Shown here in pieces: positions 21,128 through 34,164 of a stretch of 64,000 nt of DNA; positions within the stretch are counted from its first letter, which is position 1, and each line of letters begins with the position of its first letter. The notes under the pieces are model-generated. The model ran no database searches. It was not told the origin of the DNA and was given only the letters and a program-made list of their open reading frames with translations. The stretch lies in contig CAXXIA010000001.1 of the NCBI GenBank assembly GCA_963666985.2, positions 384,001 through 448,000 on the forward strand, given 5' to 3'. Position numbers and translations under genes: made by a program. Source of the stretch: Spirochaetia bacterium (GTDB lineage: Bacteria; Spirochaetota; Spirochaetia; DSM-2461).

Positions 21128-21613
21128 CTCTCAACTTCAGCGCCTGGTGTTCTTTCGGAACTCAGCCGCTTCGTTTCGGCCATGTGCAAGCTGATGCTTG
21201 CCCGCGGCTCTCAACTTCAGCGCCTGGTGTTCTTTCGGAACTCAGCCGCTTCGTTTCGGCCATGTGCAAGCTGATGCTTGCCCGCGGCTCTCAACTTCAG
21301 CGCCTGGTGTTCTTTCGGAACTCAGCCGCTTCGTTTCGGCCATGTGCAAGCTGATGCTTGCCCGCGGCTCTCAACTTCAGCGCCTGATGTTTTTCCGGAA
21401 CTCAGCCGCTTCGGCTCGACTATGCCCAAACGGTAGTTTGGTCACAGCCCTCGCTCTCAGCGTCTGATGGGAATCCCCTTCAGTCGGCCACGTCGTGTGG
21501 CCTCCTTGCGGGCCGTCTCCGGCGGCTTTCGCCGACATCCTGTCGGCTCATCGCTCCTATTGTCGCGCGCCGCCTCCGCTTCGATTCCCATCGGGCTTAC
21601 TCTGTAGATAAAC
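21128..21613 (-). repeat. tRNA-Gly-linked modular repeat array (left)
   Basis: Units start AGCG(C/T)CTG at 21139, 21219, 21299, 21379 (80 bp each) and 21459 (long unit, interrupted by the IS, resuming at 23336). Confidence 0.92.
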
Positions 21614-23336
21614 GGGGCTGTCTCATTAGTTTGAGACAGCCCCTTTTAAAATTTGGTTGACCTCCGAAGACGGGAGGTTCCCTCCCATCCCCTTATCGTT
21701 TCTGTAGCTTCCTCATGTTATGAGCCATACTCAACAGTCCCCATTCAGTACTGACCATCTTCAATCCCCTGGTTCGGAATCTCCGAAATCCCATATTCGT
21801 CTTGATATCTCCGAATACAGATTCGACTTCAATCGGCCTGAGAGAGCGCATTCTCAGTCCTTCCTCTGAAGTCAGCAACTTGCGCACTTCAGACTTATGC
21901 CGTTCCAGGTTTGGACGAACCGTCAGGATGCGCTCTTTGCCTCCGTATTTGCAGCACCGGATTCGGAGAGAACACCTTTGGCATCCAGGGCCTGTATACC
22001 TTTTTTCAGTGGTCGGAAATCCTGAACCTGTTTTCGAGATTCTGGTCTCCTCGTGTTTGAATCGGCGACCCTTGGGGCACCGGTATGTATCATCAGAGGC
22101 ACGATAGTCCCAGTTCTCTTTCATATGAATCTGCTTCTTGAACTTCCGTTTCCGCTCCCTGTGGAAGTAGCTGAACTTGATGTACTTCTCGACACCATGA
22201 TCCTCACACCACTGGTAGTTCTCTTCACTACCATATCCTGAATCAGCAATGATTCTTTTCGGATAGCGTTTCAGATTCTTTTTCAGTTTCTCCATATGTA
22301 GCGGCAATGTCAGGGAGTCACCGGGACTCTGGTGGATGCTATATCCGAGGATGAACTGGTTCTCAGTACCCATTTGGATGTTGTACCCGGGCTTGAGCTG
22401 ACCATTTTTCATATAGTCTTCTTTCATCCGCATGAAAGTCGCATCATAGTCTGTTTTCGAGTAACTATTTCGGTCGCCGAGGATTCTCTTCTGCTGCTCA
22501 TACTTTTTGGCACGAGGGAGATAGTCCTTGCTAGCGGTATTCAATCTCCGTTGAATCTCCTTCTTTTCTCGCTCCTCCCGATCCTTGCGCAGCTCTTCAT
22601 TGAGCTTGGATACCGCATCTTCGAGAATCTCCGACATCGGCCTGCCTTGAGGATCCACATGGGGAAGGTCATGGTCGCCGTACTTCTCATCCTCTTCTTC
22701 ATTGATGCGGTCGATGTATTCGAAAAGCTCATCCATATTGCCGGCCAGGCGCTTCTGGAACTTGTCTGTCGCCCGGCCCCATACCCATGTGTATTTGTTA
22801 GCTGCTGATTCGATTTTTGTGCCGTCGAGAAAGTAGTTCTCCATCTGGACATGTCCGCTCTCGATGAGGCTGTTGGCCATTGAGGCAAAGATTTTCTCGA
22901 TGCTCTTCTTCAATGGACCGTTACGAAATCTGTTTATCGTGTGGAAATCAGGACGGTTATTACCACTGATCCACATGAAGCATATCTGCTCACGAAGAGC
23001 GTCTGCGATTTGACGACAGGAATACAGCTGTTTCGAGTAGGCCAACACCAGAACCTTCAGCATCATCACCGGGTGGTAGCTGCTGGCACCGCCTCCCGGA
23101 TAGGCGTTGAAGAGCTCACTGGTATCCATCGTGTCGATGAAGTTGTTGATTGTGCGGGATATATGGTTTGCGGGAAGCAGTTCATCGAGACTTGGAGGCA
23201 GGAGCATCTGTTGGCTGATTTCGTAATCTTTGAATGTAGCCTTCTTTTTAGTGTCCATGAAGAATTCTACCACCCTTGAATTCAGAAGGGAATTCTTCCA
23301 GACATGAAAAAGGGCCGCCTCTTATGAGACAGCCCC
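21614..23336 (-). mobile_element. IS1182-family insertion sequence
   Basis: 13-bp perfect TIR GGGGCTGTCTCAT (21614-21626) / ATGAGACAGCCCC (23324-23336) around a single transposase; no target duplication seen. Confidence 0.9.
21693..23258 (-). CDS. IS1182-family DDE transposase
   Basis: YHPVMMLKVL, PDFHTINRFR, FLDGTKIE, SKTDYDATFMRMK, IADSGYGSE, VESVFG. Confidence 0.93.
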   Translation of the reverse strand: MDTKKKATFKDYEISQQMLLPPSLDELLPANHISRTINNFIDTMDTSELFNAYPGGGASSYHPVMMLKVLVLAYSKQLYSCRQIADALREQICFMWISGNNRPDFHTINRFRNGPLKKSIEKIFASMANSLIESGHVQMENYFLDGTKIESAANKYTWVWGRATDKFQKRLAGNMDELFEYIDRINEEEDEKYGDHDLPHVDPQGRPMSEILEDAVSKLNEELRKDREEREKKEIQRRLNTASKDYLPRAKKYEQQKRILGDRNSYSKTDYDATFMRMKEDYMKNGQLKPGYNIQMGTENQFILGYSIHQSPGDSLTLPLHMEKLKKNLKRYPKRIIADSGYGSEENYQWCEDHGVEKYIKFSYFHRERKRKFKKQIHMKENWDYRASDDTYRCPKGRRFKHEETRISKTGSGFPTTEKRYTGPGCQRCSLRIRCCKYGGKERILTVRPNLERHKSEVRKLLTSEEGLRMRSLRPIEVESVFGDIKTNMGFRRFRTRGLKMVSTEWGLLSMAHNMRKLQKR

Positions 23337-23345
23337 TCTTGGGGT

Positions 23346-23412
23346 AGCGCCTGGGAATCGAACCCACGTCACGAGCTTTGGAAGCTTTCCAGGCACCATT
23401 ACATCACCCTGC
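23346..23412 (-). pseudogene. Chimeric/degenerate tRNA-Gly copy (att-like remnant)
   Basis: 3' half matches the tRNA at 34093-34164 except a 3-nt deletion and anticodon CCC>CCA; 5' half is a different tRNA-like sequence (GCAGGGTGATGTAATGGT); acceptor stem cannot pair. Confidence 0.8.
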
Positions 23413-23592: not shown

Positions 23593-26500
23593 TTACACAA
23601 GGGCGGTCGTTTCGTCTTCGATATCCAGAACAGGCGAACCGATCAGCATGCTGGCACCAAGATGGGCGGGATCAGATTCCAGAACGTTATGGAAATGGAC
23701 CAGGGCTTCGCTTTTCTGTCCCAGGCCGGCCTTGGCCAAGGCCATGAGAAATCGGCAATGGGTTCTGTTATTCCGGTTGAGATCGTCGTCGAAGAGCTGG
23801 ATATCCGGAAGTGAGACGGCAAAGAAATCGATTTTCACTTCATCAAAAAGATGCTGCTCACCGTAGTCCAGAAGCTTGTTGAAAAGACTTTTTGCCGTTT
23901 TCCTCTTGCCTAGTTTTAGCCATGCCAGAGCTTGATAGAAAATCATATCCGCCGGCTGATCATTGTAGAACATAGCAGCGACAGGCTCGGAATCACCAAG
24001 GGTGGCCAGTTCAAATTCCTCTTTCGCGGCTGCCTCCTCCTTCTGTTTCTGGCGACAGAGACCCAGAAGATAATGAATGTCGTTGTCCTTTCGGCCTATC
24101 AATTTCCCTTCCCCGAGATTGACCGGATAGCTGAGGCTTTTGTTGAGTTTTTCCACCGCGTCTTCAATTCGGCCGTTTTTCATCGATTGAACGGCAAGTT
24201 CTCTCAGGGCAATGACAAATTGAGAGGAAACTTTTCCTTCACCTCCTTCCCAGGGATGGAATCTGGTTTCTTTAATGAAGTCCAGAGCCTTCTGATAATC
24301 GCCCGTGAGATTGAGGAGCGTGGCATATTCAACTTTCAGGTCGTCCCGGACTGGAATAAGCGATAAATGTTTCAGAAAATTCTCCAGTCTATTCTGAGGT
24401 TGGTGGCCGAATTTCTTGTGGAGCTGATCAAGTTCGTAAAACACTCTGGCATCAGTGGGATCGCAGGCGAAAGCGGCTTCCATCTCCTTCATAGCCGAGA
24501 TTTTATCGTTCTTCTTGTTGAACAAGACAATGGAGAGGTTTCTGTGGGACGTTGGGAAATCTGGAGCGATACGTGCGCTTCGGTTCCAGTATTCGAAGGC
24601 ATCGTCGTATCTGCGTTTGTCGTAGCAGAGGTTACCCTGCATGTAAAGCGCCACCCAATCGTTCGGCGAGGCCTCAATGGCGTGTAAAAGGGCGTCCTGA
24701 TCGTCCAGAGTATAGGCAAAACGGGATACGGGCATCTGTCCGGCGGCTTCCTTCAGGAATACTTCATCATTCATTCCCTGCTTTGCTGCGTAGAAGGCTT
24801 TATGGTAGGACACCAGAATGTCTTCTCCTGGGTAGCGCTGAAGTATTTCCAGGGCTTCTTCACAGCAACCTGTTCGGGCGAAGTCCGCGGCCAGGGAGAG
24901 GTAGGTTTCTACACGGCCACCGATTCGCTGATCGATATTGAATCCAACGGCTCGGCTTTCTAGTTTTTCCAGAACGAGGGCGGATCCGTAATCGAAAGGA
25001 TTTTCGATGAGATTCTCTTTGGCCGCCTCGACGGCTTCGGCAAGGTTACCCTTCTTCTGAAGAATGAAGGCTTTCAGGAACCGGGCCGTGGTGTTTCGGG
25101 TATTGTATTGCAGGGCCTGATTGACGAAGGCCAGGGCTTCATTCCAGGCATCTCTCCTACAGGAGATAAAGGACAGCATGGAGAAGGCGACTCCAGCCTG
25201 TCCTTGAGTCCATGTGGCCTTGTAGAAATGGTCGAAAGCCTCTTTCTCACGACCCAGCCGGAACAGGATGAAACCGTAAATCAGATGGGGCTCGCTGTCT
25301 GCGGGATTCGTGTTGAGCATTTCCATGCGTTCGATGGCCTTGCAGCAGTAGGTCTCCGCCAGGGCGGCATCCCCCCGACGGAATTGAAGAGCCGCCATAG
25401 CCGTGTTAATTCGGATGTCACCCGGGTCCCGGCGGAGTCCTTCTTCGTAGTAAAGATCTGGAATGTATGTGGCATGGCGGTACTGTTCGATGTGGCGGCC
25501 CACAAGAAGCAGTTCTTCATTTGTGCGAATTGTATCGGGCGTACCTGGGGCCTTTGCCGGTTCCGGCAAGGGCTTCACCGTGGATTTTTGGGGAGAGTAA
25601 CGGATGAGTTTCCGTCCATTGGAGTCGAAGACGGTTAAGAGCAGTTCCTCCTTTTCGCAATGAATGCCTTCAACCTTTTTCTCGAAGAACATATCTGGAG
25701 AGGTGGAGATAGTTTGATCCACAAAAATTTCTTTTCCGGAGAGAACCACACGAATGTTCTTTTCAGTTCCAGTGGAGTAAACCGCAAACCACGCTGTTCC
25801 TTCTGACACTTCCAGGTTGACAAGGATGTCTTTCGTGGCGTTTTTTACGGAGCCGAGTCCTTTATAGGGAAGGAAATACTGTGTGAAATGCTTTTCCTCG
25901 TACGGCCGAAGCCATGAAAAATCGGGCTGATTATCGGTGTACATTCCCGTCATCAGTTCGATGTAGGGGCCGTTTTTATCAGTGAGGTTCCTGTCCCAGG
26001 CCAGGCCGAAGTCCCCGCATCCCCAGGTCCACTGCTTTTTTCCGGGGGAGACGTGGTGATCGGCTACATGAAGGATTCCCGCTTCCTCTTCGTAGTCGTA
26101 ACCGCCGACGAAATCGTAATCGCTTCGGTAGGCCATGTAGGAGGTGGGAACCGGGAGGTTCTTGTACCGGGAAATATCCACACCTTCCGAATAGTCATAT
26201 TTGTAGTATTCGCCCGTGGCTATCGGGAAGCGGGAAACCGCCCGTTTGCCATGGTCGTATACGGCATGCACGTCCGGAGGGAATATGGACTGGGTATGAT
26301 CGTTGACCGCCACGGCGGGGTTCGCCCACCATAGGAATGTCTGGGTCATGTTGGTGGGGTTGAAAACGCTGGAATTGATTTCAATATAACTTTTTTCGGC
26401 GTGAAGGCAGAACTCCGTCACGACACTGGTTCCGCTGATTCTATCGTAGTCATAAACCTTAACGCTTGATATATCTCCGTCGTTTTCTTCGATGGAATAG

Positions 26501-26895
26501 TCGACATTCATGAATGTCGTGGGACGGTGGTGCTGCGGCCAGTTGAATTCGATTCCTCCGGAAACCCAGGGGCCGAGGAGTCCTACGAGGGCCGGTTTGA
26601 TGACTTCATTGTGGTAGACGAAGTCGTAACCGTTGGTCTTGTCGAAAGCCCGATGGATTTTTCCACCGATTTCCGGAAGTACAAGAACCTTTATATATCT
26701 GTTCTCGAGATAAATTCCTGTGTATTCCTTGTCATGGATGTCGTCCTCAAGGGTATCGATAACCGGATAGGGATAGACTTTCCCGCTGGATCCCTGATAA
26801 ACGCGCTTTTCGAAGAACATTGGGTTCCTGTTCGGCTTTCCCATTCCATAGGTGGGAATTACAACTTTCTCGGTCCATGCCCTTGCGGTTTTCAT
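23593..26895 (-). CDS. DUF5107 + TPR protein (YphG-like)
   Basis: KRVYQGSSGKVYPYP, IKPALVGLLGPWVSGGIEFNWPQHHRP, many TPRs, FHPWEGGEG; SD GGAGG. Confidence 0.88.
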   Translation of the reverse strand: MKTARAWTEKVVIPTYGMGKPNRNPMFFEKRVYQGSSGKVYPYPVIDTLEDDIHDKEYTGIYLENRYIKVLVLPEIGGKIHRAFDKTNGYDFVYHNEVIKPALVGLLGPWVSGGIEFNWPQHHRPTTFMNVDYSIEENDGDISSVKVYDYDRISGTSVVTEFCLHAEKSYIEINSSVFNPTNMTQTFLWWANPAVAVNDHTQSIFPPDVHAVYDHGKRAVSRFPIATGEYYKYDYSEGVDISRYKNLPVPTSYMAYRSDYDFVGGYDYEEEAGILHVADHHVSPGKKQWTWGCGDFGLAWDRNLTDKNGPYIELMTGMYTDNQPDFSWLRPYEEKHFTQYFLPYKGLGSVKNATKDILVNLEVSEGTAWFAVYSTGTEKNIRVVLSGKEIFVDQTISTSPDMFFEKKVEGIHCEKEELLLTVFDSNGRKLIRYSPQKSTVKPLPEPAKAPGTPDTIRTNEELLLVGRHIEQYRHATYIPDLYYEEGLRRDPGDIRINTAMAALQFRRGDAALAETYCCKAIERMEMLNTNPADSEPHLIYGFILFRLGREKEAFDHFYKATWTQGQAGVAFSMLSFISCRRDAWNEALAFVNQALQYNTRNTTARFLKAFILQKKGNLAEAVEAAKENLIENPFDYGSALVLEKLESRAVGFNIDQRIGGRVETYLSLAADFARTGCCEEALEILQRYPGEDILVSYHKAFYAAKQGMNDEVFLKEAAGQMPVSRFAYTLDDQDALLHAIEASPNDWVALYMQGNLCYDKRRYDDAFEYWNRSARIAPDFPTSHRNLSIVLFNKKNDKISAMKEMEAAFACDPTDARVFYELDQLHKKFGHQPQNRLENFLKHLSLIPVRDDLKVEYATLLNLTGDYQKALDFIKETRFHPWEGGEGKVSSQFVIALRELAVQSMKNGRIEDAVEKLNKSLSYPVNLGEGKLIGRKDNDIHYLLGLCRQKQKEEAAAKEEFELATLGDSEPVAAMFYNDQPADMIFYQALAWLKLGKRKTAKSLFNKLLDYGEQHLFDEVKIDFFAVSLPDIQLFDDDLNRNNRTHCRFLMALAKAGLGQKSEALVHFHNVLESDPAHLGASMLIGSPVLDIEDETTALV

Positions 26896-26924
26896 TGCGC
26901 AACGCCTCCATTGGTCGTAGGCAT

Positions 26925-26990
26925 AACGTATCATTCAGATCTTCAACTCGCTATGGCGAGGATTGCGGTTGTATTGCAGAAAATTGCTTA
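26925..26990 (-). promoter_or_regulatory. Putative AraC-activated promoter of the DUF5107 gene
   Basis: GCAA half-sites 21 bp apart; proximal site 33 nt upstream of extended -10 TGATACGTT; same geometry as 31603-31668. Confidence 0.6.
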
Positions 26991-27058
26991 TTTGGTTGGA
27001 CGACTTTTTATACAAGGTTTATGGTGTTTACTGAGAACGATCAGTATTGAGTATCGCC

Positions 27059-27898
27059 ATGAAAGTAAACGAAACCGGAGTTCTTGAGAGTTCTGAGGTC
27101 TTCTTTTCAACCCCGAGTGCGGCGGCCCAGTCGATTTTCTTCCATTTGCTTTGCTGTGGTAATTTTGACTGTAATTCGCATTACCGGGTAAAACGAAGCC
27201 AGTATAACAGTATTTTGCTTATATTGGTTGTGCGTGGATCGGGGTACGTCATCAAAGCCGGGAAGAGGGTGGCCTTGAAGGAAGGATCTATGGCCCTTGT
27301 GGACTGTTTCCAACCGCACGAGTACGGTTCAACCTCGGGATGGAAAATCCTCTGGTGCCATTTCCAATCCTCTCAGATTCTGGAGTGGTACAAACGCGCC
27401 GACAGTCAATCCGGAGGAGTCGTTCAACTTCTTGATTTTAACGCCGCTCTTCAGAGTATGAAGCAGATGATCGGACAGTTTAAAAGACAAGAGGAGGCGA
27501 ACGAAGCGGTTACCCACCTTCATCTTACCCGTTTGCTAACCGAATTCCTGCGGCCGCAGTCTCAGGGTTCTAATTCTGGTCAAACCTTTGAAAGTCTTAT
27601 TGCATATATCAATGAGAATCTTGACAAGAGAATTAAGGTTGAGGAACTCGCGGATATGGCCGGACTTTCCGTGTATCATTTTATACGGGAGTTCAAGAAA
27701 GACATCGGATACACGCCCCATGAGTACTTGATTCATGCCCGGATCAATGCCGCCAAGTTTTATCTGAAGACGACGAGAAATCCCATCAAGACGATTGTTT
27801 CCGATTGCGGTTTTTCCAGCGACAGCGCATTCTCCAATTCCTTTAAACGAATTGTGGGAACGACACCGGCTGTATTCCGGGAGTCGGGAGCTGAATGA
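27059..27898 (+). CDS. AraC-family transcriptional regulator
   Basis: Cupin-like N-term; C-terminal HTH LADMAGLSVYHFIREFKK..CGFSSDSAFSNSFKR..GTTP. Confidence 0.93.
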   Translation: MKVNETGVLESSEVFFSTPSAAAQSIFFHLLCCGNFDCNSHYRVKRSQYNSILLILVVRGSGYVIKAGKRVALKEGSMALVDCFQPHEYGSTSGWKILWCHFQSSQILEWYKRADSQSGGVVQLLDFNAALQSMKQMIGQFKRQEEANEAVTHLHLTRLLTEFLRPQSQGSNSGQTFESLIAYINENLDKRIKVEELADMAGLSVYHFIREFKKDIGYTPHEYLIHARINAAKFYLKTTRNPIKTIVSDCGFSSDSAFSNSFKRIVGTTPAVFRESGAE

Positions 27899-27946
27899 AA
27901 AAAGGCTGCCGCCCGAGCCTTTTCAGACTTGGACAACAGCCTTTTG
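27899..27946. terminator. Bidirectional intrinsic terminator
   Basis: AAAAGGCTG...CAGCCTTTT inverted repeat between convergent genes. Confidence 0.55.
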
Positions 27947-27962
27947 AATTCAACCGGTCAAA

Positions 27963-28950
27963 TCATTCGGCGTATTTGCCCATGATTTCCTGATAGTTCT
28001 CAGGGGTTACAACAGCTGCGTCAACGGCGGTTTCCATGGGAACGTCGTTTCCGGCGATGATGTCGAGGAGAACTTCAACGGATCCGGCTCCAACGCTTTC
28101 GGAGGAGAAATACGCCGCGGCTTTCATGGCCGATCCGCCTGCCTTCTTGAATTCGTCTTTGGCCATGTAGGCGCCCAGGCCCACGACCACCGATTCGGTA
28201 TCCAGACCGGCGCTTTCCAGGGCGCGAACGGCACCGACGGTTCCTTCTTCATTGGCGCCGGTTACAAGCCATTTCGTAATTTCAGGATGAGCTGTGAACA
28301 CGGCCGAAGAAACCTGGTTGCCCTTATCGGTGGTGCCGTCGTAGTCGGCATAGAAAATTCGGTCTTCCGGGAAATTGGGGGCCATTTCTGTGAACTTGGC
28401 ATATTCACCTTCGGCGCGGGGAACGCAGGAGGAAACTGTGTCCATGGTCATGATCAGAAGACCGACTTTCGGATCGTTGGTCATTTTGTTGTCTGAAGCG
28501 TACTGGGCGAGCCAGGCGCCGTTGGCCTCGCCGATAACATAGGCGTTGATTCCCACCCAGGGAGCAAGCTTTTTGCCATTCTCTTCAAGTGCGTCATCGG
28601 CCGCTACCACGGGGATTCCCGCTTCTTCCAGCTTACTGACTGTAGCCCTGCTCATGGTCTGGTCGGGAATGCAAGTCACAACACCGGCAGCGTTGTTCGC
28701 AATGGCATTATCGATGGCCCGAAGATATTCTTCGGGATTCATTTTTGCATCCACATAAATGAATTCGTATCCGGCCGCTTCGGCTGTGGCTTTCGCGGCT
28801 TCACCTTCATCAATAAACCAGGTCTGATCACCCGCTTTGTAGATTCCGTAGATAACAGGTTTTCCCGAGCTTTTCTCGCCGGAACCTTCAGAGAAGGCAA
28901 ACGCTGCACAGAGAAGAATGAGCAACACTACCAAACCGCTTTTTTTTCAT
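27963..28950 (-). CDS. Monosaccharide ABC substrate-binding protein (AraF-like); frameshifted in an A8 run right after the ATG
   Basis: Periplasmic-binding fold (WFIDE, IPVVAADD); SD AAGGAG + ATG at 28950 is out of frame with A8, and A7 gives signal peptide MKKSGLVVLL... Confidence 0.85.
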
Positions 28951-29017
28951 AAAAACGCTCCTTTATGGGGATAACCCCATGATTTTTATCTATGCCGGCA
29001 GACGCCGGCTGTTTTCC

Positions 29018-30055
29018 TTAAGACCGGGCCGCTTTCTTGCTGGCTTCCAGAAGAGCCCTTTCCCTGTTTCCTTTCCGCAGGAAGTCGCTGGTCAGGGCTA
29101 CAAGAAGGAGTCCGCCACGGGCCACGTACTGCCAGAAAGAGGGGACATTAACCATTGTGAGTCCCGTATTGAAAGCCTGAATGAGGATTATGCCCAGGAA
29201 GGCTCCGGTCATATCACCGATACCGCCGGCAAAGGAAATACCTCCCAGAATTACGCCGGTGATGGCATCGAATTCCAGATTCACATTGGCCGCCGGCTGG
29301 CCGGAGTTCATTCTTGCCGAGAAGACGATTCCCCCGACCGCACTGAGAACACCCATGATGATGAACATGATGGAAATGGTTTTTTTCGGATTGAGTCCGG
29401 CCAGTCTTGCTGCAGAGATGTTTCCGCCTACAGCATAAACGCTTCGGCCGAATTTGGTTCTGGCCAGAATGAATCCGAAGAGGATCATGAGAAGCAGCAT
29501 GATCCAGACGGAAATCGGGAGGCCTATAATCCTGGCTTTGCCCAGGGCAATGTAAACCGGATCGCTGATGGCCACGGGTTTTCCCCCGCAGATGATATAG
29601 GCGAATCCTCGGATAATGGTCTGCGTGACAAGCGTTGCGATGAACGGCTGTAGCTTGATTCTGTTGACCATGAAGCCGTTAAAGAATCCCAACAGGCCTC
29701 CGGCCATCAGTGTGACGATGATGACCAGATAGAAACTCATGCCGACACTCACGAGGGTTGCGGCAAGGACGCCGCTGAACGCCACAAGGGAACCGGGGGA
29801 GAGATCCACCTGAGCCGCGATGATCAGGTAAGTTTCTCCGATGGCTATCAGTCCCGCCAGCGAAGCGGCAACGAGAATGTTGACCATGTTCGTTTTTGAC
29901 AGGAAGTTTCTGTTGAGGGCGGTGAACAGAATGGTAACTGCTATTATGGCGAATACCAGAATTAGTTTCCCGCCGTCGACGCCGGATAGAAAACCGGATT
30001 TCTCTTTTCGGGATTTCGTAACCTTGTTCTGTTTGTTGGATGCTTCGCTACTCAT
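29018..30055 (-). CDS. Monosaccharide ABC permease (AraH/RbsC-like)
   Basis: DLSPGS, PFIATL, TKFGRSVYAVGGN..AARLAG, VILGGISFAGG. Confidence 0.92.
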   Translation of the reverse strand: MSSEASNKQNKVTKSRKEKSGFLSGVDGGKLILVFAIIAVTILFTALNRNFLSKTNMVNILVAASLAGLIAIGETYLIIAAQVDLSPGSLVAFSGVLAATLVSVGMSFYLVIIVTLMAGGLLGFFNGFMVNRIKLQPFIATLVTQTIIRGFAYIICGGKPVAISDPVYIALGKARIIGLPISVWIMLLLMILFGFILARTKFGRSVYAVGGNISAARLAGLNPKKTISIMFIIMGVLSAVGGIVFSARMNSGQPAANVNLEFDAITGVILGGISFAGGIGDMTGAFLGIILIQAFNTGLTMVNVPSFWQYVARGGLLLVALTSDFLRKGNRERALLEASKKAARS

Positions 30056-31571
30056 ATTCTTTCCTTCGTCCCTTATTCTTTTCTTCCATGGCGAGTCTTA
30101 AAAGAAGGTCTTCCGTTGCATCTTTTCTCATGACTTCACCCGATATTTCACGATTTCGCATAACGATGATGCGATCCGACAAGCCGATGACTTCCGGAAG
30201 TTCACTGGAGATGAGAATGACTCCTAGTCCCTGAGCGGCGAAATCGCAGATCATCTGGTAGAATTCGCTTTTCGCCCCGACATCAATGCCTTTGGTGGGT
30301 TCATCCAGAATGAGAACCTTGGGGTTCGTGGCCATCCAACGGGCCACTATGCATTTCTGCTGGTTACCGCCTGAGAGCTCGACGATCATTTTCTGAGGAT
30401 TGGGCGTTTTGACGTTGAATCGGTCGATGTATTCGGATACAAGGGCCTTTTCCAACGAACGGTTGATTACCCCCATTCGGTTGGTATTGCTGCTCATGGC
30501 CCCTATTGCGATGTTGTCGGCAACGTTGAGGTTCTCCAAAATCCCTTGAGTCTTCCGGTCTTCCGGAACCATTACGATGCCGTTCATGGCCGCTTCGCCT
30601 GGGGATTTATTAAGAATCTCTTTTCCTTCGAGTTTCACCATTCCGGACTGCATTTTGTCGGCGCCTATGATGGCCCTCATGATTTCCGTTCTACCCGCTC
30701 CCACCAGTCCGCTGAAACCGAGAATCTCACCGCGTTGAAGCTTGAAGGATATCGGTTCCACGAAGTCGCTTGAGCAATTCTCGACTTCCAGAAGAACATC
30801 TCCCTGGGAAGAGGCGCGCTCCAGATTCCCGAAGATGTTTCCAAGGTCGCGACCCACCATCATTCGGATCATCGTTTGCTCATCGGTGGTCTTGGCATCC
30901 ACGATGTCGATGAAGCGGCCATCCTTGAAGATGGCCGCTTTGTCGGCAATCTGCTTTATTTCGTTCATGCGGTGGGAAACATATATGACGACTTTCCCTT
31001 CATTCCGAAGCTTTTCGATAATGGCGAAGAGTTTCTCGATTTCTGAATCGCTCAGGGGGGCCGTCGGTTCATCGAAGCAGATGCAGATGAGATTTTCCCG
31101 GCTGTAAGCCTTCATGATTTCCACCATCTGTTGATAGGCGATGGAGAGATCCTTGGCCTTGTCCGTGGCTTTGAAAGGAAGACCGAATTCTTTAATAAGT
31201 GCTTCGGTTTTCCGATTGGCTTCCTTCACATTAATTATACCGAGTCGATTGCTGGGCATTCGTCCGAGGTAAATATTTTCGGCCACCGAGAGTTCCATCA
31301 GGATCTGCCGCTCCTGATAAATCACGCTGACTCCGGCTTCAATGGCCTGATGGGGAGAAGTGAAATGGACCTCTTTGCCGTTCAGCAGATAGCTTCCGCT
31401 GCTGGGTTGATAATCGCCGTTAAGCGTTTTAAGCAGAGTGGATTTTCCCGCTCCGTTTTCGCCGAGGAATGCCAGAACCTCTCCTCCCTGAGATGTGAAA
31501 CTTACATCATCAAGGGCTTTGACTCCGGGGAAGTACTTCGTGATGTTTTTAAACTCGACAGAATTGGACAC
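30048..31571 (-). CDS. Monosaccharide ABC ATPase (AraG/RbsA-like)
   Basis: GENGAGKSTL, LSGGNQQK, DEPTKGIDVGAK; GTG start after SD GGAGG (alternative ATG at 31586). Confidence 0.93.
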   Translation of the reverse strand: MSNSVEFKNITKYFPGVKALDDVSFTSQGGEVLAFLGENGAGKSTLLKTLNGDYQPSSGSYLLNGKEVHFTSPHQAIEAGVSVIYQERQILMELSVAENIYLGRMPSNRLGIINVKEANRKTEALIKEFGLPFKATDKAKDLSIAYQQMVEIMKAYSRENLICICFDEPTAPLSDSEIEKLFAIIEKLRNEGKVVIYVSHRMNEIKQIADKAAIFKDGRFIDIVDAKTTDEQTMIRMMVGRDLGNIFGNLERASSQGDVLLEVENCSSDFVEPISFKLQRGEILGFSGLVGAGRTEIMRAIIGADKMQSGMVKLEGKEILNKSPGEAAMNGIVMVPEDRKTQGILENLNVADNIAIGAMSSNTNRMGVINRSLEKALVSEYIDRFNVKTPNPQKMIVELSGGNQQKCIVARWMATNPKVLILDEPTKGIDVGAKSEFYQMICDFAAQGLGVILISSELPEVIGLSDRIIVMRNREISGEVMRKDATEDLLLRLAMEEKNKGRRKEYE

Positions 31572-31602
31572 GATCTCTGCCTCCATTACAGGCTAGAAAA
31601 TT

Positions 31603-31668
31603 ACTGTATCACGGTGAATTTAAGGGTGAATTAGTAAAAGTTGCTCACTCTTTGTAAAAAATTGCTCT
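31603..31668 (-). promoter_or_regulatory. Putative AraC-activated promoter of the ABC operon
   Basis: GAGCAA direct repeats 21 bp apart; proximal site 33 nt upstream of TGATACAGT. Confidence 0.6.
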
Positions 31669-31702
31669 GTATAGTCATTGATATGTGCGGTAACGTTTTC
31701 CC

Positions 31703-32620
31703 GTGGACAAAATCACCATACTGACCAATCAAGCCTTATCCGTTTCAATTCATCCATTTGGCTGTTCTCTTTTTCGTCTGCTGACTGCCGATGGGTTTTC
31801 TCCTCTTCTGGCAAGCCGAGAACCGGCTATGGCCTATGGAGGGGCCATTATCGGACCATGCTGCGGGAGGATTCCCAATGGTTTCGTTGATATGGACGAC
31901 TGTCAGATTTCTCTCTCAATGAACGAAAAGAAACATCATCTCCACGGTGGATATTTTAGTACAGCCCTTCGGTCCTGGGAACTTATGGAACGGAGTGGCA
32001 CATCCGTTTTGTTTAGGATTGCGGTTAAAGATGGTGTAGACGGATATCCGGGAAATCGACTTTTTCAGACACGATACTCCCTGGACGACATGGCCGTTTT
32101 TGTGGAAATTCAGGGTGAGTCAGATCGGCTGACCATCGTTAATCCGACGAATCATGCGTATTGGAATCTTAATGATGAATCTGTTTCATCGGTTTTGAAC
32201 CATCGATTCAGGATTTCATCATCCTTATATTATCCGACTAATGGAGAAATGTTGCCGCAGAAACCCCAGCCTGTCTATGGGACTTCCTTCGATTTTAATT
32301 CACCAAGATCCCTGAAAAAAGCCCTGGAGATTGATTGTCCCTCGGATCAGTTGAAAATCGCCAAGGGTTTTAATCATGGCTGGCGGTCATCTTCGTTGTA
32401 TTGCGAGGGTAATAGAGGCGGGCTGCGGGTAACATCCGATGCCGATGATATTTGGCTTTATTCAGGTGGTTTCTTGGACAGAACCATGATACTAGAGGAT
32501 GGTTCCTGCGCAAAACCGTCCTGTGCGTTCGCCGTTGAGCCCCAGAATATCGGAAGGCCGACCCTGCTGCACCCAGGAGAAATTTTTATACGCAGTATCG
32601 AGTTCAAGTTGCAGAATTAG
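31703..32620 (+). CDS. Aldose 1-epimerase (GalM-like)
   Basis: HHLHGG, DGYPG, NPTNHAYWNL, FAVEPQ. Confidence 0.85.
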   Translation: MDKITILTNQALSVSIHPFGCSLFRLLTADGFSPLLASREPAMAYGGAIIGPCCGRIPNGFVDMDDCQISLSMNEKKHHLHGGYFSTALRSWELMERSGTSVLFRIAVKDGVDGYPGNRLFQTRYSLDDMAVFVEIQGESDRLTIVNPTNHAYWNLNDESVSSVLNHRFRISSSLYYPTNGEMLPQKPQPVYGTSFDFNSPRSLKKALEIDCPSDQLKIAKGFNHGWRSSSLYCEGNRGGLRVTSDADDIWLYSGGFLDRTMILEDGSCAKPSCAFAVEPQNIGRPTLLHPGEIFIRSIEFKLQN

Positions 32621-32724
32621 TCCCGGTCTTCTAAGCAGAACCGGATTGGTCGTTTTTCGGGTTACATCGAGATCTGTCTTGAAGTATCAAAAACCCGACC
32701 TAAATATCGGTTTCCTTTTAAATT

Positions 32725-34092
32725 AGCGCCTGATGTTCTTTCTGAACTCAGCCGCTTCGTCTCGGTCATGTGCAAGCTGATGCTTGCCCGCGGCTCTCAA
32801 CTTCAGCGCCTGATGCGATTTGGACGCTCAGGCACTTCGGCTCGACTATGCCCAAACGGTAGTTTGGTCGCAGTCCTCGCTCTCAGCGCCTAGATGGGAA
32901 TCCCCTTCAGTCGGCCACGTCGTGTGGCCTCCTTCCGGGCCGCTGGTTCAGCTTGGCTCGGCTTCGTGCCTCACCTTGCTCTCTGTTCGGTCGCAAACAG
33001 CTTCACCCTTCGATTCCCATCAGGCTTACTCTGTAGATAAACGAAAACCCGCTTTAACGGGTTTTCTCTTGGGGTAGCGCCTGATGCGATTTGGACGCTC
33101 AGCCGCTTCGTTTCGGCCATGTGCAAGCTGATGCTTGCCCGCGGCTCTCAACTTCAGCGCCTGATGGGAATCCCCTTCAGTCGGCCACCTCGTGTGGCCT
33201 CCTTGCGGGCCGTCTCCGGCGGCTTCCGCCGACATCCTGTCGGCTCATCGCTCCTATTGTCGCGCACCGCCTCCGCTTCGATTCCCATCGGACTTACTCC
33301 GGAGAATAACGAAGCCCACCTTTCGGCGGGCTTCTAAGTGGTAGCGCCTGATGGGAATCCCCTTCAGTCGGCCACCTCGTGTGGCCTCCTTGCGGGCCGT
33401 CTCCGGCGGCTTCCGCCGACATCCTGTCGGCTCATCGCTCCTATTGTCGCGCACCGCCTCCGCTTCGATTCCCATCGGACTTACTCCGGAGAATAACGAA
33501 GCCCACCTTTCGGCGGGCTTCTAAGTGGTAGCGCCTGATGGGAATCCCCTTCAGTCGGCCACCTCGTGTGGCCTCCTTGCGGGCCGTCTCCGGCGGCTTC
33601 CGCCGACATCCTGTCGGCTCATCGCTCCTATTGTCGCGCACCGCCTCCGCTTCGATTCCCATCGGACTTACTCCGGAGAATAACGAAGCCCACCTTTCGG
33701 CGGGCTTCTAAGTGGTAGCGCCTGATGGGAATCCCCTTCAGTCGGCCACCTCGTGTGGCCTCCTTGCGGGCCGTCTCCGGCGGCTTCCGCCGACATCCTG
33801 TCGGCTCATCGCTCCTATTGTCGCGCACCGCCTCCGCTTCGATTCCCATCGGACTTACTCCGGAGAATAACGAAGCCCACCTTTCGGCGGGCTTCTAAGT
33901 GGTAGCGCCTGATGGGAATCCCCTTCAGTCGGCCACCTCGTGTGGCCTCCTTGCGGGCCGTCTCCGGCGGCTTCCGCCGACATCCTGTCGGCTCATCGCT
34001 CCTATTGTCGCGCGCCGCCTCCGCTTCGATTCCCATCGGACTTACTCCGGAGAATAACGAAAGCCTACCTTGCGGCAGGCTTTCTAATCAGT
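32725..34092 (-). repeat. tRNA-Gly-linked modular repeat array (right), 9 units
   Basis: Units start AGCGCCT at 32725, 32805, 32885, 33076, 33156, 33343, 33530, 33717, 33904 (80, 80, 191, 80, 187x4, 189 bp). Confidence 0.95.
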
Positions 34093-34164
34093 AGCGCCTG
34101 ATGGGAATCGAACCCACGTCACGAGCTTGGGAAGCTCGGGTAATAGCCATTATACGACAGGCGC
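34093..34164 (-). tRNA. tRNA-Gly(CCC)
   Basis: Acceptor stem GCGCCTG/CAGGCGC, discriminator U, anticodon arm CGAGC-TTCCCAA-GCTCG, T arm GTGGG-TTCGATT-CCCAT; CCA not encoded. Confidence 0.95.

What the first reader, a model, noticed from the sequence alone, without database searches (positions are those of the whole stretch)
32725..34164. Modular tRNA-3'-end repeat array: mixed structured cassettes, each ending in the tRNA-Gly 3' end
Seen: nine units lie directly downstream of tRNA-Gly(CCC). Read on the tRNA strand, each ends in CAGGCGCT (TAGGCGCT in one unit), the tRNA acceptor 3' strand, and long units share up to GATTCCCATCAGGCGCT. Two size classes (exactly 80 bp; 187-191 bp) are interleaved, so this is not one simple tandem repeat. 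Each long unit is closed by a stem between the tRNA-end copy and an internal inverted copy (GATGGGAATC/GATTCCCATC). Each long unit also begins with a terminator-like hairpin, GNRA-capped on the tRNA strand (GAAA, GCAA) in five of six. The 191-bp unit keeps this frame but swaps ~60 nt of internal sequence. Established: tRNA-linked repeats occur in enterobacteria, and tRNA 3' ends are integrase targets. Inference: a cassette system of small non-coding units serially added at the tRNA 3' end, or a polycistronic source of small RNAs released by tRNA-processing enzymes.
Basis: partly seen in the sequence, partly recalled or inferred. Interest (0 to 1): 0.82.

Follow-up and report, generated by a model that had tools for sequence, protein, structure and literature searches.

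The report
tRNA-mirroring repeat cassettes of spirochaetes
The nine repeats behind this glycine tRNA gene belong to an uncatalogued spirochaete family of gene-less folded units that carry a forward and an inverted copy of whichever tRNA tail they follow; they are likely mobile elements that copy their target on arrival, a possible origin for the long-unexplained tRNA-linked repeats of E. coli.

Summary
In detail: nine units (189, 4x187 identical, 80, 191, 80, 80 bp) follow tRNA-Gly(CCC), each ending in the tRNA tail. The array is not a one-off. The ~105-nt folded body of the long units has 27 hits in this genome, behind 15 tRNA genes and tmRNA, and occurs in 39 of 121 Spirochaetia genomes. In 103 parsed elements at 27 tRNA types it is bracketed by a direct copy of the local tRNA tail from T-loop position 57 (17/17 exact in 80) and an inverted copy of the local T-arm (mean exact run 11.7 versus 5.1 shuffled). 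Bodies switch tRNA type, and 25 of 80 also duplicate the sequence after the tRNA. The class is known: E. coli tRNA-linked repeats (RtT) share the layout and a short core motif, but Rfam RtT does not match. Best reading: non-autonomous elements that copy their target on insertion, then expand in tandem. No mobilising enzyme and no RNA evidence was found. One run's depth does not support four identical copies. New variant of a known, unexplained kind.

The parts
34093..34164 (-). tRNA-Gly(CCC), the target gene
   Evidence: ARAGORN; Rfam RF00005
33904..34092 (-). Unit 1, long type, 189 bp (own terminator 34059-34084, GCAA loop; 95% identical to units 2-5)
33717..33903 (-). Unit 2, long type, 187 bp
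33872..33895 (-). Terminator-like hairpin at the start of unit 2 (GAAA loop)
33838..33850 (-). Left arm of unit 2: inverted copy of tRNA positions 54-66 (GATGGGAATCGAA)
   Evidence: (I19)
33734..33837 (-). Conserved 104-nt purine-rich body of unit 2: covarying hairpins with C-ASGAN-G loops, CGGCCCG core, tandem GA pairs
33717..33733 (-). Direct copy of the tRNA tail from T-loop position 57 (GATTCCCATCAGGCGCT)
33530..33716 (-). Unit 3, 187 bp, identical to unit 2
33343..33529 (-). Unit 4, 187 bp, identical to unit 2
33156..33342 (-). Unit 5, 187 bp, identical to unit 2
33076..33155 (-). Unit 6, short type, 80 bp: dispersed 5' hairpin module plus a hairpin closed by the tRNA acceptor 3' strand
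32885..33075 (-). Unit 7, long type, 191 bp, a different body lineage (74% to units 1-5) with its own terminator
32805..32884 (-). Unit 8, short type, 80 bp (second short lineage)
32725..32804 (-). Unit 9, short type, 80 bp
32695..32710 (-). Terminator-like hairpin after the last unit
23593..32620 (.). Sugar-uptake gene block (DUF5107/TPR, AraC, ABC transporter, aldose epimerase) between the array and the tRNA-Gly fragment; island-like, no tyrosine recombinase match in it
23344..23386 (-). attR-like copy of the tRNA-Gly 3' half from the anticodon loop, with a damaged tail; anchors the second array
21614..23337 (-). IS1182-like insertion sequence (transposase ORF 21693-23273; family name recalled from its Pfam domains) inserted in the first hairpin of the second array
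21459..21613 (-). Second array: long unit (94% to unit 2 over 156 nt)
21139..21458 (-). Second array: four 80-bp units (one variant, three identical)

Best explanation
The array is a local tandem cluster of a spirochaete-wide family of gene-less, folded tRNA-linked units that are likely non-autonomous mobile elements, inferred to insert at the T-loop of tRNA genes by a copying reaction that rewrites both ends from the local tRNA and then to expand or contract in tandem. Shown: a ~105-nt body with covarying stems; a fixed right junction at C56/R57; a direct copy of the local tail; an inverted copy of the local T-arm of variable length; bodies at many tRNA types; differences between strains. Inferred: a break or stalled 3' end at the tRNA tail primes DNA synthesis that folds back on the T-arm (making the inverted arm), copies the body and rejoins at position 57, duplicating the tail and often the terminator. 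The fold likely matters as single-stranded DNA. Later, recombination or slippage between tail copies gives identical runs (4x187, 3x80) and mixes units from other hosts' tRNA-Gly loci. The enzyme is not identified.
For: Right copy 17/17 exact in 80 of 103 parsed elements, mean run 14.9 versus 2.3 with tRNAs shuffled. Left arm mean exact run 11.7 versus 5.1 (highest of 2000 shuffles 5.9); at the tRNA-specific positions 62-67, 4.22 of 6 matches versus 2.47. 25 of 80 also repeat the 40 nt after the tRNA (control 0.0002 for other tRNA types, 0.021 for the same type at another locus). The nearest body lies at a different tRNA type in 83 of 103; 67 label changes on the body tree for 27 labels. In some loci the arm follows the tail as a near-perfect fold-back (L227, L308, L294). 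Polymorphism: contigs of X3 join 21146 to 23352 (no second array) and skip one 80-bp unit; X5 joins the tRNA straight to a 191-type unit; 6 of 9 same-genus tRNA-Gly(CCC) loci have no unit. Stems: G-U 2.9% of pairs versus 9.5% in neighbouring terminator-like hairpins and 9.1% in shuffles; tandem GA motifs 1.75 per body versus 0.41.
Against: No mobilising gene was found: no Y1 transposase in G000, no integron integrase over the cut-off in G000, one retron-like RT with no element beside it, no family member among 120 viral loci or in the phage and plasmid collections. Bodies do cluster by tRNA type more than chance (67 changes versus 80.9 +/- 2.0; nearest neighbour same type 20 versus about 6 expected), so much inheritance is vertical. 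In L022 and L220 arm and right copy agree with each other and differ from the tRNA at position 62, which fits a cassette carrying its own ends. 55 of 80 do not repeat the downstream 40 nt. Arm length does not depend on spacer length. An empty site can be a loss rather than a gain. CAGGA.G loops in 98 of 103 bodies and csrA in 20 of 20 element-rich genomes fit an RNA role.
Confidence: 0.55

Rival explanations
1. Integrase-mobilised mini-islands: each unit (tail + terminator + arm + body) excises as a small circle whose tail copy is an attP core and is put back at the same tRNA type by a tyrosine recombinase in trans, possibly through a folded single-stranded site as in integron attC; arms match because lineages stay with one tRNA.
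For: A full gene followed by a downstream 3' fragment is the island signature, and T-stem-region sites are common (PMC4383910 passages). Units 1, 2-5 and 7 bring different terminators. Arm = right copy but not tRNA in L022 and L220. Clustering of bodies by tRNA type.
Against: 83 of 103 nearest bodies are at another tRNA type; a carried tail would damage a different tRNA. Local terminator duplication in 25 of 80. G000 has no integron integrase over the cut-off, and its closest short recombinase has no element nearby.
Confidence: 0.2
2. The units are kept as a source of small RNAs: read-through past each terminator and cleavage at the tRNA-like tail release ~135-190 and ~80-nt RNAs that titrate CsrA, as shown for E. 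coli RrA/B/F.
For: The tRNA strand folds better in 100 of 102 elements; CAGGA.G loops in 98 of 103 bodies, two in 61; csrA in G000 and in 20 of 20 element-rich genomes versus 14 of 20 element-free. RrA/B/F are transcribed, processed and bind CsrA (PMC8144298).
Against: The equivalent loop is often CACGA.G without GGA. G-U pairs are scarce. Presence is patchy within the genus. The same paper scores the other 19 E. coli TLRs below 0.01 for CsrA binding and finds modest phenotypes. A function would not by itself explain how ends come to match each tRNA; it can coexist with mobility.
Confidence: 0.15
3. No dedicated mobility: units arise through ordinary replication errors (quasi-palindrome correction, gene conversion among tRNA loci, slippage), and the four identical 187-bp copies may partly be an assembly effect.
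For: T-loop sequence is shared by all tRNAs and offers microhomology; four copies are identical; depth in run X1 is about single-copy over the 187/187 junction. E. coli RtT copy number ranges from 1 to 4 in the 12 listed strains.
Against: A fixed junction at 56/57, body length peaking at 103-106 nt and compensatory changes in three stems across many families point to a specific reaction or selection. Non-identical tandem arrays occur in single-contig genomes (G080).
Confidence: 0.1

Closest known systems
E. coli tRNA-linked repeats (TLRs; RtT/rttR at tyrT-tyrV, RrA/B/F; Rfam RF00391)
   Same: Gene-less units behind tRNA genes that end in a copy of the upstream gene's tail (PMC8144298); tandem arrays of variable copy number; a CGGCCCG core and, in rrnB, a CAGGACG hairpin; inverted T-stem segments of 8-10 nt at tyrT, tyrV, argV, lysQ, lysV and terminator duplication at lysQ, lysV, proK.
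   Different: The copy starts at position 56/57 here and at 58/59 in E. coli; the arm is longer (mean 11.7) and includes the T-loop; the body has extra hairpins. RF00391 hits E. coli tyr and lys units but no spirochaete element, and model R1 finds nothing in the whole K-12 chromosome, so homology beyond the core is not shown.
tRNA-integrating genomic islands (tyrosine integrase, attL/attR)
   Same: Intact tRNA gene plus a downstream copy of its 3' part; T-stem-region crossover class (PMC4383910).
   Different: 80-190 bp, no gene, an extra inverted arm, one body family at 27 tRNA types; such lengths are rejected by Islander's 2-kb filter.
REP/REPIN with RAYT, ERIC-type MITEs
   Same: Short non-autonomous folded intergenic repeats that form mosaic arrays (REPIN passages in 10.1101/2024.07.17.603846; ERIC from memory).
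   Different: Strict tRNA linkage of the long body, termini taken from the target, no Y1 transposase in G000.
Integron cassettes with attC sites (recalled)
   Same: Serial mixed units with a strand-asymmetric fold whose base could act as a recombination site.
   Different: No cassette genes, no attI, no integron integrase over the cut-off in G000; the stem is built from the tRNA sequence.

Membership tests
tRNA-linked repeats (TLR, class definition) | Lies directly downstream of a tRNA or rRNA gene | tested here: met
tRNA-linked repeats (TLR, class definition) | 3' 18-19 bp identical to the 3' end of the upstream gene | tested here: met
   Long units: 17 nt from position 57 to the discriminator (no encoded CCA here), 80 of 103 exact. 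Short units copy only 9-11 nt.
tRNA-linked repeats (TLR, class definition) | One to several tandem copies per locus | tested here: met
tRNA-linked repeats (TLR, class definition) | Co-transcribed and processed to a discrete RNA (shown for RrA/B/F) | not testable with these tools
   only DNA contigs available
RtT RNA (Rfam RF00391) | Scores above the family's gathering threshold | tested here: not met
   no RtT match in the window or in 17 non-E. coli loci, while E. coli tyr and lys units match
RtT RNA (Rfam RF00391) | Sequence homology to E. coli TLR bodies | tested here: inconclusive
   the ten best R1 matches in 5 kb of E. coli loci fall on the TLR core (E 0.006-0.55); nothing genome-wide
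Integrative genomic island | Encodes a tyrosine integrase between gene and fragment | tested here: not met
   none of the 7 PF00589 matches of G000 lies in the window
Integrative genomic island | Excises as a circle | not testable with these tools
   needs outward PCR or raw reads
REP/REPIN-RAYT | Cognate Y1 (RAYT) transposase in the genome | tested here: not met
   0 PF01797 matches in G000, 93% complete
REP/REPIN-RAYT | Dispersed in many intergenic sites independent of tRNAs | tested here: not met
   long body 26 of 27 tRNA-linked; only the 5' module of the short units is dispersed
Integron cassette array | Integron integrase with attI beside the array | tested here: not met
   no TIGR02249 match over the cut-off in G000
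CsrB/C-type sponge RNA | Several GGA motifs in hairpin loops and CsrA binding | tested here: inconclusive
   CAGGA.G motif in 98 of 103 bodies, two in 61; csrA present; binding untested

The most novel reading that the evidence does not exclude
These units and the E. coli TLRs are the visible products of an undescribed, cross-phylum mode of mobility: a small folded single-stranded element with no termini of its own is written into any tRNA T-loop by target-primed fold-back DNA synthesis and takes both arms from the target, driven by an enzyme not yet identified. A looser sister module may do the same at 23S rRNA and gene ends.
Probability: 0.25. Interest if true: 0.88.

Novelty: new variant of a known kind. 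Interest (0 to 1): 0.6.

Why it matters
E. coli tRNA-linked repeats have been known since 1978 without an origin or, for most, a function (PMC8144298). This family gives over 100 sequenced elements at 27 tRNA types, a fixed junction, an inverted target copy and strain-level empty sites, so their origin becomes testable. If the element rewrites its ends from any tRNA, that is a target-adaptive insertion chemistry at the commonest landing sites of mobile DNA. In practice the units also mimic attR sites and break assemblies next to tRNA genes.

Tried and rejected
Rfam: only the tRNA and two chance matches in the array; no spirochaete element matched any family above its gathering score. Phage and plasmid BLAST: only short Streptomyces matches inside genes; E. 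coli lysQ TLR against phages gave three partial matches. First genome contigs pattern found nothing because a gap was mis-sized. No RNA holder listed. Candidate mobilisers in G000: Y1 transposase absent; RT looks retron-like with no element near; the short IntI-like recombinase and 9 relatives have no element in the fetched flanks. R1 against the whole E. coli K-12 chromosome: no match. Arm length against spacer length: no correlation. First parser kept only 21 elements and was replaced. In one search one module site (C2 1386262) was entered on the wrong strand; its row is disregarded. Literature searches found no description of this family or of the inverted arm; Rudd 1999 and Williams 2002/2003 were not held, so they may contain it.

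Full report
OBSERVATION. The window holds one tRNA gene, tRNA-Gly(CCC) at 34093-34164 on the minus strand. Cutting the downstream sequence at AGGCGCT gives nine units of 189, 187, 187, 187, 187, 80, 191, 80 and 80 bp. Units 2-5 are identical; unit 1 is 95% and unit 7 74% identical to them; the three short units are 62-88% identical to each other. A long unit reads: terminator-like hairpin, short spacer, inverted copy of tRNA positions 54-66, a 104-nt body, and a direct copy of the tRNA tail from position 57. It folds far better than shuffles (z -5.04). The short units fold into two hairpins, the second closed by the acceptor 3' strand (z -3.2 to -4.6).

A second array lies at 21139-21640 behind a damaged copy of the tRNA-Gly 3' half (23344-23386): one long unit whose first hairpin is split by an IS1182-like element, then four short units. 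Between the two arrays is a sugar-uptake gene block with no tyrosine recombinase match, which reads as a decayed island. In the whole genome (G000, 3 contigs, 93% complete) an iterated profile of the long body gives 27 hits. They stand behind 15 of 48 called tRNA genes and the tmRNA gene: directly, as further units, behind an IS inserted in the terminator, or behind an attR-type copy displaced by an island. One hit is an orphan half. The local gene is the best or joint best match among 48 tails for the right copy in 23 of 27 and for the left arm in 19 of 27.

DISTRIBUTION. A sequence-only model found the body in 39 of 121 genomes of the class, G000 included. A pattern scan of GTDB contigs stopped at 119 loci: 80 were Spirochaetota (Treponema, Spirochaeta, Salinispira and unnamed), 79 of these confirmed by the profile and 62 with a tRNA in the locus; three strong hits were in MAGs labelled Myxococcota (2, one genome) and Planctomycetota (1), where binning error is not excluded. 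Tandem arrays of non-identical units occur in other genomes, for example G080 at Asn, Pro and Leu. Short units were seen only at tRNA-Gly, in this genus, with tails that follow the local variant. Their 5' hairpin module is dispersed, however: 35 hits at 23 loci in G000, 7 near tRNAs or the tRNA fragment, 3 just after what reads as the 23S rRNA end (recognised from memory), others after gene ends, four of these flanked by 9-12-nt direct repeats.

THE ENDS FOLLOW THE TARGET. Of 196 profile hits in the pooled loci, 151 had a tRNA within 2.2 kb upstream, 110 could be parsed with anchors that do not use the tRNA sequence, and 103 were unique (83 loci, 27 tRNA types); 45 without a tRNA in the locus and 41 that failed the anchors were dropped. 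Of the 45, 20 end in at least 15 of 17 bases of a known tRNA tail, 11 in 13-14 and 14 in fewer. In the 103, the right copy is exact over 17 nt in 80 (mean run 14.9 versus 2.3 shuffled). The inverted arm has a mean exact run of 11.7 versus 5.1, and 4.22 of 6 matches at positions 62-67 versus 2.47 (highest shuffle 2.83). The anchors and the scan pattern demand T-loop-like letters, so identity at 54-61 is partly built in; the 62-67 test is not. Identity falls from 0.93 at position 62 to 0.53 at 66. The base before the copy is C in 75 of 103, so the junction is at C56/R57; bodies are 94-123 nt with a mode of 103-106. In 25 of 80 elements the 40 nt after the tRNA recur after the right copy (controls 0.0002 and 0.021). 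The nearest body sits at the same tRNA type in 20 of 103 (about 6 expected), and the body tree needs 67 label changes against 80.9 +/- 2.0 shuffled: vertical descent is real, but switches are frequent. The tree is of short sequences and kin are not independent. Two loci go against simple copying: in L022 and L220 arm and right copy agree and differ from the tRNA at position 62.

STRUCTURE. Two hairpins with loops C-ASGAN-G keep their pairs through double changes (8-9 of 19 sequences at the inner pairs), and a 4-bp stem next to the right copy covaries (GCCT/AGGC, GCTC/AGAG, GGTC/GACC). Bodies are 65% purine and 9% T; outer stem positions are Watson-Crick or G-A. G-U makes 2.9% of predicted pairs, against 9.5% in 62 neighbouring terminator-like hairpins and 9.1% in shuffles; tandem GA motifs are four times enriched; the tRNA strand folds better in 100 of 102. 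Tandem sheared GA pairs are notably stable in DNA (my own knowledge), so this leans to a single-stranded DNA fold without excluding RNA. CAGGA.G loops in 98 of 103 bodies lean the other way, though many equivalent loops read CACGA.G.

DYNAMICS. Among 9 same-genus tRNA-Gly(CCC) loci, 6 have no unit, 1 a long unit and 2 a short unit. Contigs of run X3, a related strain, join 21146 to 23352 with an intact tail, so the second array and its IS are absent there, and skip one short unit; X5 joins the tRNA to a 191-type unit. In X3/X4 (one sample) a unit-1-type contig runs upstream into another body end. Gain and loss cannot be told apart from these. In X1, identical over long pieces, the contig across the 187/187 junction has depth 6.56 against 5.24 for single-copy DNA, whereas the short repeat shows 23.5; this does not support four copies in that sample, but contig depth is a poor measure.

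MECHANISM. I commit to non-autonomous mobility with target copying (0.55): a fixed right junction, a variable inverted left arm, frequent duplication of tail plus terminator and switching between tRNA types are what fold-back synthesis primed at the target would leave. Tandem runs then follow from recombination between tail copies. The order of steps and the enzyme are inferred. Searches for a partner failed; integron integrases are commoner in element-rich genomes (11 of 20 versus 3 of 20) but none passes the cut-off in G000 and genome size confounds this. Rivals: integrase-mobilised mini-islands (0.2), CsrA-binding small RNAs as the reason for existence (0.15; csrA in 20 of 20 versus 14 of 20), ordinary replication errors (0.1).

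COMPARISON. PMC8144298 (passages and the first part of the Discussion read) defines 22 E. coli TLRs at ten loci by an 18-19-bp copy of the upstream gene's 3' end, of unknown function except that RrA/B/F are processed and bind Hfq and CsrA with modest effects. The long units meet that definition. Of 13 K-12 tRNA genes examined, 12 are followed by such a unit (argY by the next gene); five have inverted T-stem segments of 8-10 nt, and three repeat the terminator. The core CGRCCCGNAGGG occurs 19 times in K-12 (9 for the reversed control); 15 lie in the tRNA or rRNA loci I fetched and 1 in a coding gene. Rfam RtT does not match the spirochaete elements and R1 finds nothing genome-wide in K-12, so they work like TLRs and belong to the class, but are not RtT family members. 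PMC4383910 and 10.1101/2024.07.17.603846 were read as passages. Eight searches found no description of the family or of the inverted arm; Rudd 1999 and Williams 2002/2003 could not be read. Earlier notes of this scan report the same family in this genome and similar ones in Clostridia; they are leads, not support.

VERDICT. Real, well beyond chance, and a new variant of a known but unexplained kind. Interest 0.6.

Noticed in passing
window 21614-23337: IS1182-like element with 14 copies in G000 by an exact 35-nt end match; its ends form a terminator-like hairpin and several copies sit right behind tRNA genes or units (Gly fragment, Arg tcg, Arg tct, Leu caa).
   Followed up: partly
G000 C3:161888-162151, C2:973016-973226, C1:756733, C2:737211, C2:1503341, C2:267341/271099/1048064: The 5' hairpin module of the 80-bp units also builds arrays away from tRNAs, after gene ends and after the apparent 23S rRNA end, some with 9-12-nt direct repeats of the upstream sequence.
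   Followed up: partly
window 23593-32620: Integrase-less sugar-uptake block bounded by the tRNA-Gly gene array and a tRNA-Gly 3' fragment; also present in related strain X3.
   Followed up: partly
L335 (G000 C2:1777133-1777966): Short 277-aa tyrosine recombinase similar to integron integrases but below the cut-off, with GTTATAAC next to its start; related proteins in several Spirochaetia.
   Followed up: partly
L314 (G000 C2:1836211-1839822): 308-aa reverse transcriptase preceded by a 314-aa ORF, retron-like in layout.
   Followed up: no
L005 (G000 C1:782267-782424): Behind tRNA-Glu(CTC) a stretch resembling a body domain in reverse orientation precedes the normal unit.
   Followed up: no
L017 (G000 C2:2344000-2344620) and L325 (G080): Hybrid units: T-arm inverted copy joined to the short-unit module at tRNA-Leu(CAA), and 228-nt units with an extra hairpin inside the tail copy at tRNA-Pro(CGG).
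   Followed up: no
L073:340-370 (E. coli rrnB T1-T2): The rrB TLR contains CAAATCCGC...GCGGATTTGAAC, which looks like a leftover tRNA T-arm copy and its inverted arm, although the unit now follows 5S rRNA.
   Followed up: no
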